From positions 1 through 26,124 of the IMG/VR virus record IMGVR_UViG_2698536443_000009: 26,124 bases of DNA; one strand, written 5' to 3'. Origin of the DNA: a virus. Lineage: Duplodnaviria; Heunggongvirae; Uroviricota; Caudoviricetes. The notes beneath the pieces were generated by a model. That model was not told the DNA's origin, ran no database searches, and saw nothing but the letters and a program-made list of their open reading frames with translations. This document shows, piece by piece, positions 9,813-13,962 of this stretch (within the stretch, counting starts at the first letter, position 1; each line of letters begins with the position of its first letter). The position numbers were made by a program, and so were the translations under genes.

Positions 9813-11201
9813 ATGGCTACTTGGCAAGGATCAAATGGCGGATTGTTGGCTGGTATCGGCGGTGTCAACTCAAACGCTCCGAGCGTAAATGACATCGGCA
9901 ATACGCTTCAGCTTATCAGGCAGAACAATGATATTGAGCGTTCAGGCGCTAACAATGTTGGGCTGACTGCTTTGCAAGGCCTTTCAGGTATTGCGGGGGT
10001 GTTTCAGCAGGAAAAGCAGGCTCAGCGGCAGAAAGAATTTCAGCAGGCATACGCTAATGCTTATGCGTCTGGTGATCGCGGTGCTTTGCGTCAGTTGGCT
10101 ACTCAATATCCAGACCAGATTGAATCCGTTCGTAAAGGCATGGGATTCATTGATGAAGACCAGCGCAATTCTATCGGCACCTTAGCGGCTGGCGCTCGTC
10201 TTGCGGCATCGTCTCCAGAAGCAATGCAATCATGGCTGCAAAACAACGCCAAGGAACTGACTCGCGTCGGTGTTGACCCTAACAACGTTGCTCAGATGTA
10301 TCAGCAGAATCCTTCAGGATTTGGTGAGTTTGTTGATCACCTTGGGATGGCTGCGCTTGGTCCGATTGATTACTTCAATGTTCAGGACAAGATGGCTGGT
10401 CGTGAGATTGATCGCGGAAAACTTGCAGAGACAATCCGCAGCAATCAGGCTGGCGAGGCGCTAACAGCACGAGGCCAGAACATCACGATGCGCGGTCAGG
10501 ACTTATCTGCTTCTACTGCGCGACGCGGGCAGGATTTGGCAATGCAGCGAGCGTCAACAAGAGGAACCGCTGGGAATGATGAGCGTACAGTTCAGTTATC
10601 AGATGGCAGAACTGTAACGGTAGGCGGGAAACTTCACGGCGCTGGGGCTAATGCGTTCTACGAAGGCATCGACAACGAGGGGAATATGGTTCGCGTTCCT
10701 GCCAGTTCAATCGCAGCGCCTGCAACATCGTCTGCATCAGCACAAAACTATGCCATGAAGAAGGATATCGACGCGATCGCAAATGCAGACGCTTCTGCTC
10801 TCGATTTCATGACAGGAATGACAGGCGGTGCAGGTAATCCAGCAATTGGTGCTGATGTTCGCAGCCGATTAACAGGAAAAGAGCAGCGCCAGTTATATAA
10901 CTCAGCACAACGTATTCAGGGCAGAATGCAGAATCAGGGTGTGGCGGCAGCAAGGGACATGGGTGCCAGTGGTATTAACACCGTTGCAGAAGCGAAGATG
11001 TATTTTCAGGGGATGCCGCAGGTTGACTATTCAAGCCCGGAGGCTATGCAGCAGTCGATTCGTGAGATTCAGGAATACACCAACAATTACAACCAACAAT
11101 ATAACGTTAATGTTGGTAAATCTCAGCGGCAGCAATCTCAACCTGCACAGGTATCACAGCCAGCAGCCAGCAGTAACTTTTCTTCACTATGGGGTGATTA
11201 A
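9813..11201 (+). CDS. Ejection protein, P22 gp20-like
   Basis: 462 aa (P22 gp20 is 471 aa), in the syntenic position. RBS AAGGGG. Confidence 0.7.
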
Positions 11202-13198
11202 TGGCTAAAGCATGGAAAGATGTTATCGCCTCTCCACAGTATCAGGCGTTAGCACCAGAACAAAAAGCGCAGGCTCAGGAGCAATACTTCAATGAAGTCG
11301 TGGCCCCGCAAGCCGGAGAAAATGCAGAGCAGGCTAAGCAAGCTTTCTATGCTGCCTATCCATTGCCATCTGTGCAGCAAGTGGAGACACAGCAACCAGT
11401 AGCACAGCAACAACCACAGCAAAGTGGATTTATGTCTGATCTTGGCGAAGCAGTAAAAGAGACTGGTCGCGGACTGGTGCAGGCTGGCGTGAACGTGGCA
11501 AACATACCTGCATCAGTCGCCGATGCTGTAACAAGCGCGGCGGCTTGGGCTGGCGGTAAACTCGGCATTGGCGATGGTACATATCAACCAGCGCCACGAG
11601 TAACAACGCAGGGATTAGAGCAGGACTTTGGCCTTCAGCAAGGTGCGCTGACTCCACAAACGACAGAGGGAAGGGTATTTGCTGAAGCATTGCCTTACCT
11701 CACTCCTGCTGGAGTTGAGAGAGCTGCAACACAGGCACCAACACTTGCTGGTCGAATTGCTCAGGGTGCAACTCGCCTTCTCGCAGAAAACGCAGTTGGA
11801 TCACTTGCTGCAAATAGTGCGAAAGATGATGCGGAAGCACTCGCCACCGATTTAGGCGTTGGTGTGTTGGCTGGCGGTGCTATTAACGCTGCCGGACGTG
11901 GATTAGGTGCTGCTTATCGTGGCGTTCGTGGTGCTATTGCGCCAGAAGCGCAGCAGGCTATCAGATTTGCAGAGCGTGAAGGAGTGCCTCTGCACACCAC
12001 AGACCTGTTACAACCTACTTCCCGCGTCGGAAAAATGGCTCAGACTACAGCAGAAAATATCCCTCTGGCTGGCACAAGCGGAATGAGAGCAACGCAACAG
12101 GAAGCGAGAAGTCAGTTGGTGCAGAGATTTGCCGATAAATTCGGGGAGTATGATCCAGCGGTTGTTATTGACAGCCTTAAAGCGAAAACATCAGGAATTC
12201 GTCGTGCTGCCGGTAATCGACTGGAGCAGGTTCAGAATGCTATGGCTGGAGTAAACATTCAACCTGCGCGAGCAATTCAGCAGATTGATACAGAAATATC
12301 TAACCTGCAGAAGCTTGGTAAGGTTGCTGATAACGAGACTATTTCAAAACTTCAGTCATATCGTGATGAGCTTGTTCGCAATGCTGGTCCTGATGGTCCG
12401 GTCAATCTGGATTTGAAGCAATTAAGCGATCTGCGCAGCCAGTTCAGAATGGACGTGAAGGGTGAGCGACCAGTGTTACCAAACCGTTCCGATGCTGCCA
12501 TTCAGCGAGTTTACAAGGCGATGACCGACGATATCAATGGTGCCATTGGTCAGAATCTTGGCAATGATACTCTTCGTAAATATCAGCAGGCCAATGCCGT
12601 CTACGCTGACGAAGCGGCGAAACTAAAGAATACCAGGCTGAAGAATGTTCTCATGAAAGGCGACCTGACGCCGGAAGTTGTCAACAACATGCTATTCAGC
12701 AAGAACAAATCGGAAATTAAGACTCTGTATAACTCAGTTGGTCGTGTTGGCAGGGCGCAAATGCGCAATGGCATCATTGGAAAGGCGATGGAGAAATCAG
12801 GTGGTTCCCCTGACCAGTTCCTTCGGCAACTTAACATCCTGCAAAACCAGACTGGCATCACATTTAAAGGTCAGGAAGCCGCTTATCTGAAAGGATTGAA
12901 AAACTACCTGCAATCCACGCAACAGGCTGCAAAAGCAGCAGTAACAACACCAACAGGGCAGCAAACCATCCCGTTCATTATCGGGTATGGGACGGCAATG
13001 AACCCGGCGACAACTGGCGCAGCGGTAAGCTACGGACTTCTTACTCGCGCCTATGAGAGCGAGCCATTCAGAAATGCAATGCTCCGAATGGCAAACACAC
13101 CACGCGGATCAACAGCGTTTGAGAAAGCCATGCAGCAGGCGCAAAAGGCCATTAACGCCCTGACTCAGGGTGCCAAGTCTGATGCGTTGTCAGAATAG
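11201..13198 (+). CDS. Ejection protein, P22 gp16-like
   Basis: 665 aa (P22 gp16 is 609 aa), last gene of the ejection trio, with a TAATG overlap to the preceding gene. Confidence 0.7.
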   Translation: MAKAWKDVIASPQYQALAPEQKAQAQEQYFNEVVAPQAGENAEQAKQAFYAAYPLPSVQQVETQQPVAQQQPQQSGFMSDLGEAVKETGRGLVQAGVNVANIPASVADAVTSAAAWAGGKLGIGDGTYQPAPRVTTQGLEQDFGLQQGALTPQTTEGRVFAEALPYLTPAGVERAATQAPTLAGRIAQGATRLLAENAVGSLAANSAKDDAEALATDLGVGVLAGGAINAAGRGLGAAYRGVRGAIAPEAQQAIRFAEREGVPLHTTDLLQPTSRVGKMAQTTAENIPLAGTSGMRATQQEARSQLVQRFADKFGEYDPAVVIDSLKAKTSGIRRAAGNRLEQVQNAMAGVNIQPARAIQQIDTEISNLQKLGKVADNETISKLQSYRDELVRNAGPDGPVNLDLKQLSDLRSQFRMDVKGERPVLPNRSDAAIQRVYKAMTDDINGAIGQNLGNDTLRKYQQANAVYADEAAKLKNTRLKNVLMKGDLTPEVVNNMLFSKNKSEIKTLYNSVGRVGRAQMRNGIIGKAMEKSGGSPDQFLRQLNILQNQTGITFKGQEAAYLKGLKNYLQSTQQAAKAAVTTPTGQQTIPFIIGYGTAMNPATTGAAVSYGLLTRAYESEPFRNAMLRMANTPRGSTAFEKAMQQAQKAINALTQGAKSDALSE

Positions 13199-13267
13199 CT
13201 TCGCAAACACCAGGAACGTGCAAAAACCAAATATGTAGAACGCAATATTCATCATATCTCTTTGCAT
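13190..13267 (-). CDS. Candidate small hydrophobic peptide (25 aa, MQRDMMNIAFYIFGFCTFLVFAKLF) downstream of mnt
   Basis: On the minus strand, GGAGG (13276-13272) lies 4 nt before an ATG at 13267; the ORF runs to a TGA at 13192-13190. It is too short for the ORF track. It occupies the position where P22 carries sieA/hkcC. Confidence 0.25.
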   Translation of the reverse strand: MQRDMMNIAFYIFGFCTFLVFAKLF

Positions 13268-13287
13268 AAATCCTCCGTAATGGATGG

Positions 13288-13551
13288 TTAGTTGCTGTCT
13301 TTTTTATATAGCTCCTTTAGCGTGTCAAAGACAATTTTCTTAACCATATCGGATTGTTGTTCTGCCATACGCTCTGCATCGTCAATGTAAACTGATGCAG
13401 AGCTTTGTTTATCCAGTGATTCTTCAATCGCTGCAATTATCTCTGAGTTCAGAGACCTGTTATTCATCTTCGCACGCTGTTTAATCTTCGCGTGGAGTTC
13501 ATGCGGAAGTCTCAAGTGAAACTGCGCCTCGTCGTATTTGCTGTACATCAT
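13288..13551 (-). CDS. mnt: Mnt repressor (Arc/MetJ ribbon-helix-helix family), P22 immI region
   Basis: From the MMYSKYDE start, the protein aligns along its length with P22 Mnt: FHLRLPHELHAKIKQRAKMNNRSLNSEIIAAIEESLDK versus FNFRMPMEVREKLKFRAEANGRSMNSELLQIVQDALSK, and DDAERMAEQQSDMVKKIVFDTLKELYKK versus NDAERLADEQSELVKKMVFDTLKDLYKK. The track ORF is extended upstream to 13632; the start at 13551 (or 13548) has a GGTGAGG RBS. Confidence 0.85.
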   Translation of the reverse strand: MMYSKYDEAQFHLRLPHELHAKIKQRAKMNNRSLNSEIIAAIEESLDKQSSASVYIDDAERMAEQQSDMVKKIVFDTLKELYKKDSN

Positions 13552-13962
13552 CAATGCCTCACCTAATGGGTGGAATGGCATCGTAAAACCTACTGTACAA
13601 ATCAACAATCGTACCGTTTCGGTATGTAACAAACGCCAACCGTAGCCATGCTGCGGCGATTCCTTGTATCTGGAGCAAATTAAATGACAGATATTATAAA
13701 TAGGAATTTTTATTTAATAATATTTGAAAATTAAAATCATGGACGATAGGAATAAAAGTAGTACTTGTCATTTTTAAGTGACGCATTAAACGCATAAAGC
13801 ATATGTCTGTTGATCAAGATTCTTACTTGTTGTAAAATAATTGTCCTGTTCATGTTGCATGGTTTTAAAATGAATAGAAGATTATTTTTCAAAACAATTG
13901 CATCTTTGTCTGCAGTCATTCCGTTTTCTTCAATATCTAAATTTTCAAACAGGATGACTAAT
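13552..13962. promoter_or_regulatory. AT-rich control region between mnt and the tailspike gene (expected Pmnt, possible operator remnants and tailspike promoter)
   Basis: About 410 bp of AT-rich non-coding sequence with several inverted repeats (CACC-N6-GGTG near the mnt start; AAATGACA ... TGTCATTT separated by about 75 bp). P22 has arc and ant here; they are absent. Confidence 0.35.

What the first reader, a model, noticed from the sequence alone, without database searches (positions are those of the whole stretch)
13190..13267. Unannotated 25-aa hydrophobic peptide ORF with a strong Shine-Dalgarno sequence, co-oriented downstream of mnt
GGAGG-atttATG followed by MQRDMMNIAFYIFGFCTFLVFAKLF encodes a single predicted transmembrane helix. 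It sits where P22 carries superinfection-exclusion genes (sieA, hkcC) and convergently overlaps the gp16 stop. It could be a small membrane-active exclusion or toxic peptide expressed from the mnt transcript in the lysogen.
Basis: inference. Interest (0 to 1): 0.5.

Follow-up and report, generated by a model that had tools for sequence, protein, structure and literature searches.

The report
Hidden prophage micro-gene, probable exclusion peptide
The 25-codon reading frame is a real, conserved and never-annotated gene for a tiny membrane peptide of P22-like prophages. Its counterpart in Salmonella prophage BTP1 lies inside a transcript, published as a non-coding RNA, that makes cells immune to reinfection, so the peptide may be the true immunity factor.

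Summary
Window 13190-13267 (minus strand) encodes MQRDMMNIAFYIFGFCTFLVFAKLF. A GGAGG sits 4 nt before the ATG, the ORF starts 20 nt after a true Mnt homologue, and it overlaps the gp16-homologue stop by 9 nt.

It is more than a chance ORF. In a gp16-anchored sample of 208 viral loci, 203 keep an intact ORF, 2 have lost the stop and 3 lack it. It comes in two length classes, 25 aa (Sf6/window) and 23 aa (L, BTP1, phiKp_30), that differ by an in-frame 9-nt indel. Substitutions concentrate at third codon positions (23-aa class: 83 synonymous against 40 non-synonymous changes, P<0.001; 25-aa class weaker, P about 0.002). The Shine-Dalgarno sequence is kept in most upstream contexts.

No record, protein library or family library contains the peptide. 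About 5% of complete E. coli genomes carry it.

In BTP1 the homologous ORF lies inside STnc6030. This lysogen-expressed "antisense RNA", when cloned, excludes BTP1 but not P22. Its escape mutations are non-synonymous changes in gp16 residues 583-595, the same segment where P22 SieA-escape mutations map.

My best explanation is a single-helix inner-membrane peptide that blocks gp16-dependent DNA entry. That step is inferred, not shown.

The parts
13190..13267 (-). Mini-ORF of 25 codons plus TGA, encoding MQRDMMNIAFYIFGFCTFLVFAKLF, a predicted single membrane helix.
   Evidence: Searches give the sequence. The frame is intact in 203 of 208 gp16-anchored loci. Synonymous changes are in excess in this frame, and it is the only frame open in both length classes.
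13272..13276 (-). Shine-Dalgarno GGAGG, 4 nt (ATTT) upstream of the ATG.
   Evidence: Of 47 distinct upstream contexts, 37 have an SD match of at least 4 nt at a spacing of 3-10 nt, against 14% in shuffles. GGAGGATTT-ATG is shared with the 23-aa class.
13288..13551 (-). mnt homologue (Arc/Mnt ribbon-helix-helix repressor). Its stop is 20 nt upstream of the mini-ORF ATG, so it is the likely source of the transcript in this prophage.
   Evidence: 49% identity to P22 Mnt. Pfam Arc 8.6e-15 and Repressor_Mnt 3.4e-14. No terminator-like site between it and the ORF. In P22 the mnt transcript likewise carries a downstream ORF, orf59a, before its terminator.
11201..13198 (+). gp16-type DNA-ejection protein gene (Sf6 gp13 type, 665 aa). 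Its last 9 nt overlap the mini-ORF on the other strand.
   Evidence: In P22, gp16 forms the channel across the cytoplasmic membrane (bioRxiv 10.64898/2026.09.03.749273).
12977..13015 (+). gp16 residues 593-605 (IIGYGTAMNPATT). This segment aligns with the escape-mutation window of BTP1 gp16 (residues 583-595) and with the position of P22 SieA-escape residue P546. It is the proposed target segment.
   Evidence: Coordinate mapping is, and the BLASTP alignment. This segment type always co-occurs with the 25/26-aa peptide class and never with the 23-aa class.

Best explanation
The ORF is a genuine micro-gene of P22-like (Lederbergvirus) prophages. It encodes a 23-25-residue peptide with a short polar head (M-x-R-D) followed by about 20 hydrophobic residues, which is the length of one inner-membrane helix. 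It is physically tied to the 3' end of the gp16 ejection-protein gene, whose stop it overlaps, and it travels with the last 120-150 codons of that gene as one mosaic module.

In this window it is most likely transcribed with mnt in the lysogen and translated from its own strong ribosome-binding site. I propose that the peptide sits in the cytoplasmic membrane of the lysogen. There it would prevent the gp16 of an incoming phage of the same gp16 type from building the channel across the cytoplasmic membrane, so that DNA is not delivered. That is superinfection exclusion at the entry step, as with P22 SieA but with narrower specificity.

Shown here: the ORF exists, is conserved, is under purifying selection and has a conserved ribosome-binding site. 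Its BTP1 homologue lies inside the cloned, lysogen-expressed STnc6030 fragment.

Shown by others: that fragment excludes BTP1 but not P22, does not affect prophage induction, and is escaped by non-synonymous gp16 changes.

Inferred: that the peptide rather than the RNA is the effector, that it is membrane-inserted, that it acts on gp16, and that the 25-aa version in this window does the same.
For: 1. Coding signal. In the 23-aa class there are 83 synonymous against 40 non-synonymous changes, at codon positions 30/10/84, where the null expects 32 +/- 4.8 synonymous (P<1/3000). The subset found only through a gp16 pattern gives 55 against 32, at positions 21/9/57 (P<1/3000). The 25-aa class gives 33 against 48 (P=0.002). 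In the hydrophobic core only 1 change to a polar residue is seen where 5.1 are expected (P=0.03).

2. Frame integrity. The two classes differ by an in-frame 9-nt indel. The frame is intact in 203 of 208 loci.

3. Translation signals. The SD is conserved in 37 of 47 contexts while flanking sequence varies.

4. Gene-boundary mosaicism. Homology to at least four different upstream neighbourhoods breaks within 1-2 nt of the ATG. The one variant that lacks the ORF breaks at the ORF's stop codon.

5. Link to STnc6030. The BTP1 ORF (D23580 404321-404250) lies inside STnc6030 (403942-404727). It is the only ATG ORF with a strong SD in the cloned 787-nt insert. The main Northern bands of about 480-500 nt equal the distance from the 5' end to just past the ORF stop at insert nt 479.

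6. Escape mutations. The escape SNPs fall in gp16 residues 583-595 and are all non-synonymous. P22 SieA-escape residues G532 and P546 align with BTP1 G576 and V589.

7. Entry-step signature. Over-expression of STnc6030 leaves prophage induction untouched, as expected for an entry block and awkward for antisense destruction of late mRNA.

8. Target plausibility. gp16 forms the cytoplasmic-membrane channel.

9. Pairing. Peptide class and gp16 segment type pair without exception in about 200 loci. phiKp_30 shows the C-terminal gp16 segment and the ORF exchanged together.
Against: No experiment separates peptide from RNA. The authors of PMC7067206 and a 2025 review (PMC12197685) interpret STnc6030 as an antisense RNA whose 3' 'seed' pairs with gp16 mRNA, and single mismatches can matter for kissing-type antisense contacts.

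The escape SNPs lie 172-209 nt 3' of the ORF, so they say nothing directly about the ORF. Four non-synonymous SNPs out of four is not statistically unusual.

The 25-aa class in this window shows a weaker constraint (rough dN/dS about 0.5), and Sf6-type contexts have only a weak SD (GAG).

No convincing sigma-70 promoter was found for Sf6 or L contexts. The mapped BTP1 promoter inside the tailspike gene is not conserved in Sf6 or the window.

The mirror antisense frame is also open in the 23-aa class and shares part of the synonymous excess (61 against 63). However, it is closed in 51 of 52 sequences of the 25-aa class.

The pairing of peptide class with gp16 segment may simply reflect their distance of about 200 bp. 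There are no translation or proteomic data.
Confidence: 0.6

Rival explanations
1. The functional product is a non-coding antisense RNA, as published for STnc6030. It would pair with the late mRNA across the gp16 3' end (and, in BTP1, the tailspike 5' end) and destabilise it. The mini-ORF is either irrelevant to exclusion or encodes a peptide with some other role, which would make the transcript dual-function.
For: This is the published model with experimental backing for the phenotype: cloned transcript, Northern blot, and escape SNPs clustered in 36 bp of the complementary gp16 region (PMC7067206; repeated in PMC12197685). In this window too, any transcript through the ORF is necessarily antisense to the gp16 3' end.
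Against: Codon-position-specific conservation, the in-frame indel and SD conservation in the part that does not overlap gp16 show selection on a translated product. There is no significant RNA structure on either strand of the window (z -0.28 and -0.73) and no Rfam match. The abundant BTP1 RNAs of about 480-500 nt, if they start at the mapped 5' end, stop before the proposed 'seed' at insert nt 650-687. Over-expression does not reduce phage yield on induction. All escape SNPs change the gp16 protein, in the segment where SieA-escape changes also fall.
Confidence: 0.22
2. The peptide is a type-I-toxin-like or abortive-infection membrane peptide. It would be kept silent by the convergent late transcript or another antisense RNA, and would kill or depolarise the cell on infection or on loss of the prophage.
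For: Its size, hydrophobicity and single-helix layout resemble Hok, TisB, Ibs, ShoB and Ldr-type toxins (my own knowledge). It is overlapped by convergent transcription of gene 16.
Against: The BTP1 homologue is highly expressed in healthy lysogens (mean TPM about 90). It was also carried on a constitutive PLlacO-1 plasmid in lawns used for plaque assays. Exclusion there is phage-specific (BTP1 but not P22), which a general membrane toxin does not predict. There is no match in Pfam, NCBIfam, PHROGs or PADLOC.
Confidence: 0.1
3. The ORF is a chance ORF, or the remnant of an older gene, preserved only because it hitch-hikes with the essential 3' end of gene 16.
For: Within the 25-aa class the simple codon-position count is not significant (18/12/23). 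Nucleotide diversity in the ORF (0.088) exceeds that of the adjacent gp16 coding sequence (0.052).
Against: The synonymous excess is specific to this frame and is strong in the more divergent 23-aa class. Across peptide identities down to 36%, no frameshift or nonsense change appears in 203 loci. The SD is conserved. Mosaic joints coincide with the start and stop codons. There is no resemblance to the SieA or orf59a termini.
Confidence: 0.04

Closest known systems
STnc6030 of Salmonella Typhimurium D23580 prophage BTP1 (Owen et al. 2020, Microb Genom, PMC7067206)
   Same: It is the homologous locus: a minus-strand transcript across the gp16-homologue 3' end. It contains the homologous mini-ORF MERDLLNFVFLIFGLVVGKLLFA behind GGAGG-GTTT-ATG. 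The motif M-x-R-D-x-x-N-x-x-F-x-I-F-G is shared, and both ORFs overlap the gp16 stop. It is expressed in lysogens, and its function is superinfection exclusion of phages with the same gp16 type.
   Different: It was described as a 786-nt non-coding antisense RNA, because no ORF longer than 60 aa was found. Its 5' end lies inside the tailspike gene, whereas here mnt lies between the ORF and the tailspike gene and probably supplies the promoter. The BTP1 peptide is 23 aa against 25 aa here, at about 45% identity, and its C-terminal half differs (IVVGKLLFA against FCTFLVFAKLF). No experiment exists for the 25-aa class.
P22 SieA (Leavitt et al. 2024, mBio, PMC10883804)
   Same: It is a prophage-expressed inner-membrane product encoded between gene 16 and gene 9. 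It blocks DNA delivery by P22-like phages. It is escaped by amino-acid changes in the C-terminal part of gp16 (G532W, P546S), which align with the segment hit by STnc6030-escape mutations.
   Different: SieA has about 160 aa and several membrane helices, with a FxRYPxEAxxFNK motif. It has no sequence similarity to the peptide. It excludes phages with P22, L, Sf6 and CUS-3 ejection proteins, whereas STnc6030 spares P22. Escape from SieA also involves gp20.
Small single-helix type I toxins of enterobacteria (Hok, TisB, IbsC, ShoB, Ldr)
   Same: They are under 50 aa and consist of one hydrophobic helix. They are missed by annotation pipelines and are overlapped by antisense transcription.
   Different: There is no evidence of toxicity here, and high constitutive expression of the BTP1 homologue is tolerated. 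No dedicated antitoxin RNA is known, and there is no family match. This comparison rests on my own knowledge of those families.
P22 orf59a (hkcC-like), the ORF that follows mnt on the P22 mnt transcript
   Same: It has the same position and orientation, as the first ORF downstream of mnt and upstream of the transcript's end.
   Different: orf59a encodes 59 aa and is hydrophilic (MAKKPGENTGKNGG...). It is unrelated in sequence and is not attached to the gene 16 stop.

Membership tests
Translated small protein gene (general criteria) | Start codon preceded by a ribosome-binding site at proper spacing, conserved among relatives | tested here: met
   GGAGG lies 4 nt before the ATG. The ATG is kept in all 203 intact loci. 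37 of 47 distinct upstream contexts have an SD match of at least 4 nt, against 14% in shuffles.
Translated small protein gene (general criteria) | Purifying selection specific to the reading frame, and only in-frame indels | tested here: met
   23-aa class: 83 synonymous against 40 non-synonymous, P<1/3000. Unbiased subset: 55 against 32, P<1/3000. 25-aa class: 33 against 48, P=0.002. The indel between classes is 9 nt. This is the only frame open in both classes.
Translated small protein gene (general criteria) | Direct evidence of translation (ribosome profiling, tagging or mass spectrometry) | not testable with these tools
   No such data were found.
STnc6030-type exclusion locus (BTP1) | Sequence homology and the same position, antisense to the 3' end of the gp16-type gene | tested here: met
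   DNA and peptide alignments A2 and A4. Coordinate mapping places the BTP1 ORF at D23580 404250-404321, inside STnc6030 at 403942-404727.
STnc6030-type exclusion locus (BTP1) | Transcript start inside the tailspike gene, with the 5' part antisense to the tailspike gene | tested here: not met
   In the window, mnt and about 400 nt separate the ORF from the tailspike gene. The BTP1 promoter TTGAAT-17-TTCAAT is not conserved in the window or in Sf6.
STnc6030-type exclusion locus (BTP1) | Confers exclusion of phages with the cognate gp16 type | not testable with these tools
   This is known only for BTP1 (PMC7067206). Nothing is known for the 25-aa class.
SieA family | Protein of about 160-200 aa with several membrane helices and the FxRYPxEAxxFNK motif | tested here: not met
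   The peptide has 25 aa, and the motif is absent. The P22 SieA sequence shows no resemblance. No Pfam, PHROGs or PADLOC hit.
SieA family | Encoded between genes 16 and 9 of a P22-like prophage, with escape through the gp16 C-terminal segment | tested here: inconclusive
   The position criterion is met. Escape mapping exists only for the BTP1 homologue: residues 583-595, aligned with P22 P546 and near G532.
Type I toxin peptides | Toxic on expression and controlled by a dedicated antisense RNA | not tested
   Only indirect evidence is available: the BTP1 homologue is tolerated at high constitutive expression. No family match.

The most novel reading that the evidence does not exclude
The 23-25-residue peptide, not the RNA, is the effector of STnc6030-type immunity. 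If so, it is by far the smallest superinfection-exclusion protein known. Each variant of the gp16 C-terminal channel segment would carry, overlapping its own stop codon, a cognate 'anti-self' membrane peptide. That would make a two-part kin-exclusion cassette that recombines as a unit among P22-like phages of Escherichia, Shigella, Salmonella and Klebsiella.
Probability: 0.5. Interest if true: 0.82.

Novelty: new variant of a known kind. Interest (0 to 1): 0.72.

Why it matters
If the peptide is the effector, a textbook-style example of a phage 'antisense RNA for superinfection exclusion' would have to be re-read as an mRNA for a micro-protein. A 23-25-residue helix would then be enough to stop a phage from building its DNA channel through the cytoplasmic membrane.

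That would give a minimal, genetically tractable probe of how gp16 inserts and assembles. It would also explain why the 3' end of gene 16 is such a sharp mosaic module. And it would add a widespread gene to annotation: it is present in about 5% of complete E. coli genomes and in Salmonella, Shigella and Klebsiella phages, yet absent from every protein database checked.

The idea is directly testable with one point mutation in an existing plasmid.

Tried and rejected
1. RNA element instead of a gene. Folding of both strands gave z -0.28 and -0.73. Rfam at E<=1 gave nothing. No terminator-like site was found around the ORF.

2. Transcript-ending hairpin. A strong hairpin spans the BTP1 stop codon (z -3.6) but is not conserved in L, phiKp_30 or the window, so it is not a family feature.

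3. Promoters. Consensus scans found nothing convincing upstream of the ORF in Sf6 or L. The BTP1 promoter inside the tailspike gene is not conserved. A conserved TATAAT 24-26 nt upstream of the ATG in tailspike-adjacent contexts has no proper -35 element.

4. Remnant of sieA or orf59a. There is no resemblance to their sequences.

5. Genome-wide search for the peptide in other genera. My degenerate pattern was too loose and AT-rich.

6. Homology search of the large protein database. Exact look-up of 8 variants found none.

7. Family libraries. Pfam, NCBIfam, PHROGs and PADLOC gave no hits.

8. Literature. No paper prints the peptide, and none re-interprets STnc6030. Two apparent 'BTP1' hits were DOI strings.

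9. Simple codon-position count within the 25-aa class alone (18/12/23) was not significant. The signal appeared only with tree-based counts and with the more divergent 23-aa class.

10. More distant gp16 relatives. A Proteus phage whose gp16 C-terminus is 65% identical has no such ORF, and P22 itself has none.
Full report
**1. The observation**

ATG is at 13267 and TGA at 13192-13190, giving 25 codons, MQRDMMNIAFYIFGFCTFLVFAKLF. GGAGG (13272-13276) precedes the ATG by 4 nt.

The ORF starts 20 nt after the stop of a co-oriented gene. That gene is 49% identical to P22 Mnt and matches Pfam Arc and Repressor_Mnt. The last 9 nt of the ORF overlap the end of the gp16-type ejection-protein gene (11201-13198, plus strand). 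No terminator-like site lies between mnt and the ORF.

The best 17-residue Kyte-Doolittle window scores 2.04, which is compatible with one membrane helix.

An ORF of this length is common by chance: 50 ORFs of at least 20 aa lie in 3.5 kb. The question is therefore whether the ORF is conserved as a gene.

**2. Conservation among close relatives**

The window is a P22-like (Lederbergvirus) prophage with an Sf6-type gene 16.

The ORF is intact, with no indel, in Sf6, IME10, ECO26.1, 683R2, 720R6, Gally and VSe13. A 96-nt query around it is found in 282 of 5426 complete E. coli genomes. It is not annotated in any phage record inspected or in RefSeq.

Homology to the window stops within 1-2 nt of the ATG, and the sequence beyond that point falls into at least four unrelated neighbourhoods:
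- mnt, as in this window;
- the tailspike gene, divergently oriented (Sf6);
- a 161-aa lipoprotein gene (Gally, VSe13, E. coli B7A);
- another tailspike-adjacent variant.

A fifth variant lacks the ORF altogether. There the replacement begins at the ORF's stop codon and changes the last gp16 codon. Mosaic joints that coincide with a start and a stop codon are what one expects of a selected gene.

**3. A deeper family**

Phages whose gp16 C-terminus is only 74-79% identical carry a 23-codon minus-strand ORF at the same place:
- Salmonella phage L: MNRDLLNFAFLIFGIVVGRLLFA;
- BTP1: MERDLLNFVFLIFGLVVGKLLFA;
- Klebsiella phiKp_30: MERDLLNAAFLIFGIVVGMMLFA.

The DNA alignment shows many synonymous differences and an in-frame 9-nt indel. 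The stop is shifted by one codon, which comes from synonymous codon choice in gp16. GAGG/GGAGG-NTTT-ATG is shared. A Proteus phage with 65% gp16 identity, and P22 itself, have no such ORF.

I then sampled IMG/VR with a pattern taken from the gp16 protein (NTPRGSTAFEKA, back-translated), which is blind to what follows the gene. Of 208 evaluable loci, 203 have an intact ORF of 22-27 codons, 2 have lost the stop and 3 lack the ORF.

**4. Selection tests**

Substitutions were counted by parsimony on a neighbour-joining tree. They were compared with random placement of the same number of transitions and transversions.

| Data set | Synonymous | Non-synonymous | Codon positions 1/2/3 | Null synonymous | P |
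|---|---|---|---|---|---|
| 23-aa class | 83 | 40 | 30/10/84 | 32 +/- 4.8 | <1/3000 |
| 23-aa class, only loci found through the gp16 pattern | 55 | 32 | 21/9/57 | 21.6 +/- 3.8 | <1/3000 |
| 23-aa class, only codons not fixed by my earlier peptide pattern | 42 | 31 | 20/7/46 | 19.7 +/- 3.7 | <1/3000 |
| 25-aa class (this window) | 33 | 48 | 24/19/38 | 21.2 +/- 3.8 | 0.002 |

The 25-aa class is the weaker case. Its simple allele count by codon position was not significant (18/12/23). In its hydrophobic core, 1 change to a polar residue is seen where 5.1 are expected (P=0.03).

The mirror antisense frame, which shares wobble positions, carries a weaker echo of the signal. It is open in the 23-aa class but closed in 51 of 52 sequences of the 25-aa class.

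Of 47 distinct upstream contexts, 37 have an SD match of at least 4 nt at proper spacing, against 14% in shuffles.

RNA-level explanations found no support. There is no fold better than shuffles and no Rfam family. I conclude with high confidence that this is a translated micro-gene.

**5. It is unknown to databases**

The peptide has no match in Pfam, NCBIfam, PHROGs or PADLOC. None of eight exact variants is present in a collection of 15 billion proteins. No paper prints the peptide.

**6. The link to a published phenotype**

Owen et al. 2020 (PMC7067206) described STnc6030 in BTP1. It is a highly expressed lysogen transcript, antisense to the tailspike 5' end and to the 3' end of the gp16 homologue STMMW_03891. 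They classed it as non-coding because it has no ORF longer than 60 aa.

When cloned under a constitutive promoter, it gave total immunity to BTP1 but not to P22. It did not change phage yield from the resident prophage.

Five escape phages carried four SNPs within D23580 nt 404041-404078, and all four are non-synonymous in gp16.

I mapped the locus from the supplementary coordinates (STMMW_03891 at 402294-404261; STnc6030 at 403942-404727) and the cloning primers:
- The BTP1 mini-ORF lies at 404321-404250, which is nt 408-479 of the 787-nt insert.
- It is the only ATG ORF there with a strong SD (GGAGG-GTTT-ATG).
- The Northern bands of about 480-500 nt equal the distance from the 5' end to just past the ORF stop. 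BTP1 has a strong hairpin there (z -3.6).
- Such RNAs would not contain the proposed 'seed' at insert nt 650-687.
- The escape window corresponds to gp16 residues 583-595 (ILGIGTVTNPALV).

**7. Convergence with SieA**

P22 SieA is an inner-membrane protein that blocks DNA delivery. It is escaped by gp16 G532W and P546S, plus changes in gp20 (PMC10883804). In a BLASTP alignment these residues fall on BTP1 G576 and V589, inside or next to the STnc6030-escape window.

In-situ cryo-EM work indicates that gp16 alone forms the channel across the cytoplasmic membrane (bioRxiv 10.64898/2026.09.03.749273).

An exclusion factor that acts at DNA entry explains why induction of the resident prophage is unaffected. 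The authors noted this as a puzzle for the antisense model.

The two peptide classes pair without exception with two versions of this gp16 segment:
- IIGYGTAMNPATTGAAVSYGLL with the 25/26-aa peptides;
- I[LM]GIG..TNPALVG.GGGYGLL with the 23-aa peptides (about 200 loci).

The pairing holds even in one locus whose extreme gp16 C-terminus has been replaced. phiKp_30 gp16 is identical to the window's over about 360 central residues, then switches to the L type for the last 120-150 residues together with the 23-aa ORF. Tight linkage could produce this pattern on its own, so it is supportive rather than decisive.

**8. Mechanism proposed, and its status**

- Shown here: a conserved, selected, SD-equipped 23-25-codon gene fused to the gene 16 stop, and the presence of its BTP1 homologue in the cloned STnc6030 fragment.
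- Shown by others: that fragment excludes BTP1, spares P22, spares induction, and is escaped by gp16 amino-acid changes.
- Inferred: the peptide inserts as one helix in the cytoplasmic membrane and prevents gp16 of the cognate type from forming its channel.
- Inferred for this window: the ORF is co-transcribed with mnt in the lysogen, as orf59a is with mnt in P22, and does the same against phages with Sf6-type gp16.

I put the overall explanation at about 0.6. Separately, I put 'it is a real gene' above 0.9.

**9. Caveats**

- No experiment separates peptide from RNA, and a 2025 review still lists STnc6030 as a cis-antisense RNA.
- The escape SNPs are outside the ORF.
- The 25-aa class is less constrained, and Sf6-type contexts have a poor SD.
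- I could not identify convincing promoters outside BTP1.
- A toxin-like role is unlikely, given tolerated constitutive expression and phage-specific protection, but it has not been tested.

**10. Verdict**

The feature is a new, unannotated micro-protein family and a new variant of prophage superinfection-exclusion membrane factors. It also gives a concrete, cheaply testable re-interpretation of a published 'non-coding' RNA.

Noticed in passing
window 13674-13735 and 13697-13953 (plus strand): The canonical tailspike ribosome-binding site and start (GGAGCAAATTAAATGACAGATATT, as in Sf6) survive only as a 17-codon stub ending in TAA. An AT-rich stretch of about 260 nt follows before the real tailspike start, ATGACTAATATGCCTGAT at 13954. 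An in-frame ATG at 13870 would add [28 protein letters not shown], which has a twin-arginine-like RRLFFK motif, to the tailspike protein.
   Followed up: no
window 13639-13696: A 58-nt block upstream of the tailspike start is 93-100% identical in otherwise different P22-like phages (HK620, epsilon34, Emek, Kapi1). CUS-3 annotates it as 'bsq1; boundary sequence'.
   Followed up: no
L003 1890-2405 (-), L009 1690-2175 (-), L004 1339-1824 (-), L006 1340-1825 (-): In Gally, E. coli B7A, VSe13 and 720R6 a 161-171-aa lipoprotein gene (lipobox LLAGC or LLVGC) lies directly upstream of the mini-ORF on the same strand, about 20 nt away. It has no Pfam match. Together they look like a two-gene envelope cassette.
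   Followed up: partly
L252 13-2103 (Klebsiella phage phiKp_30 gp16) against window 11201-13198: phiKp_30 gp16 is 100% identical to the window protein over about 360 central residues. It then switches to the L/BTP1 type for the last 120-150 residues and carries the 23-aa ORF class. This places a mosaic joint inside gene 16, just upstream of the escape segment.
   Followed up: partly
L254 2164-2258 and homologous stretches of 28 loci (tailspike-adjacent contexts): The roughly 95 nt between the tailspike start and the mini-ORF form a conserved block. It has an imperfect inverted repeat (perfect in Sf6: CCGGACA...TGTCCGG) and a TATAAT 24-26 nt upstream of the mini-ORF ATG, but no proper -35 element. 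Its function is unknown; it could serve the tailspike gene, the mini-ORF or both.
   Followed up: partly
L254 2065-2100 (minus strand, BTP1): A strong hairpin spans the last codons and stop of the BTP1 mini-ORF (-18 kcal/mol, z -3.6). It lies at the expected 3' end of the roughly 500-nt Northern band. It is not conserved in L, phiKp_30 or the window.
   Followed up: yes
L065 and L113 (IMG/VR): Two loci have TGA changed to AGA at the mini-ORF stop. The change is synonymous in gp16 and extends the peptide to 52 aa.
   Followed up: no
L253 2233-2535 (plus strand, phage L): In phage L a plus-strand lipoprotein gene (orf62; MKKGVMVGCFCVFLAGC...) lies right next to the mini-ORF. The mini-ORF there has no co-oriented upstream gene, and no promoter-like site was found for it.
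   Followed up: partly
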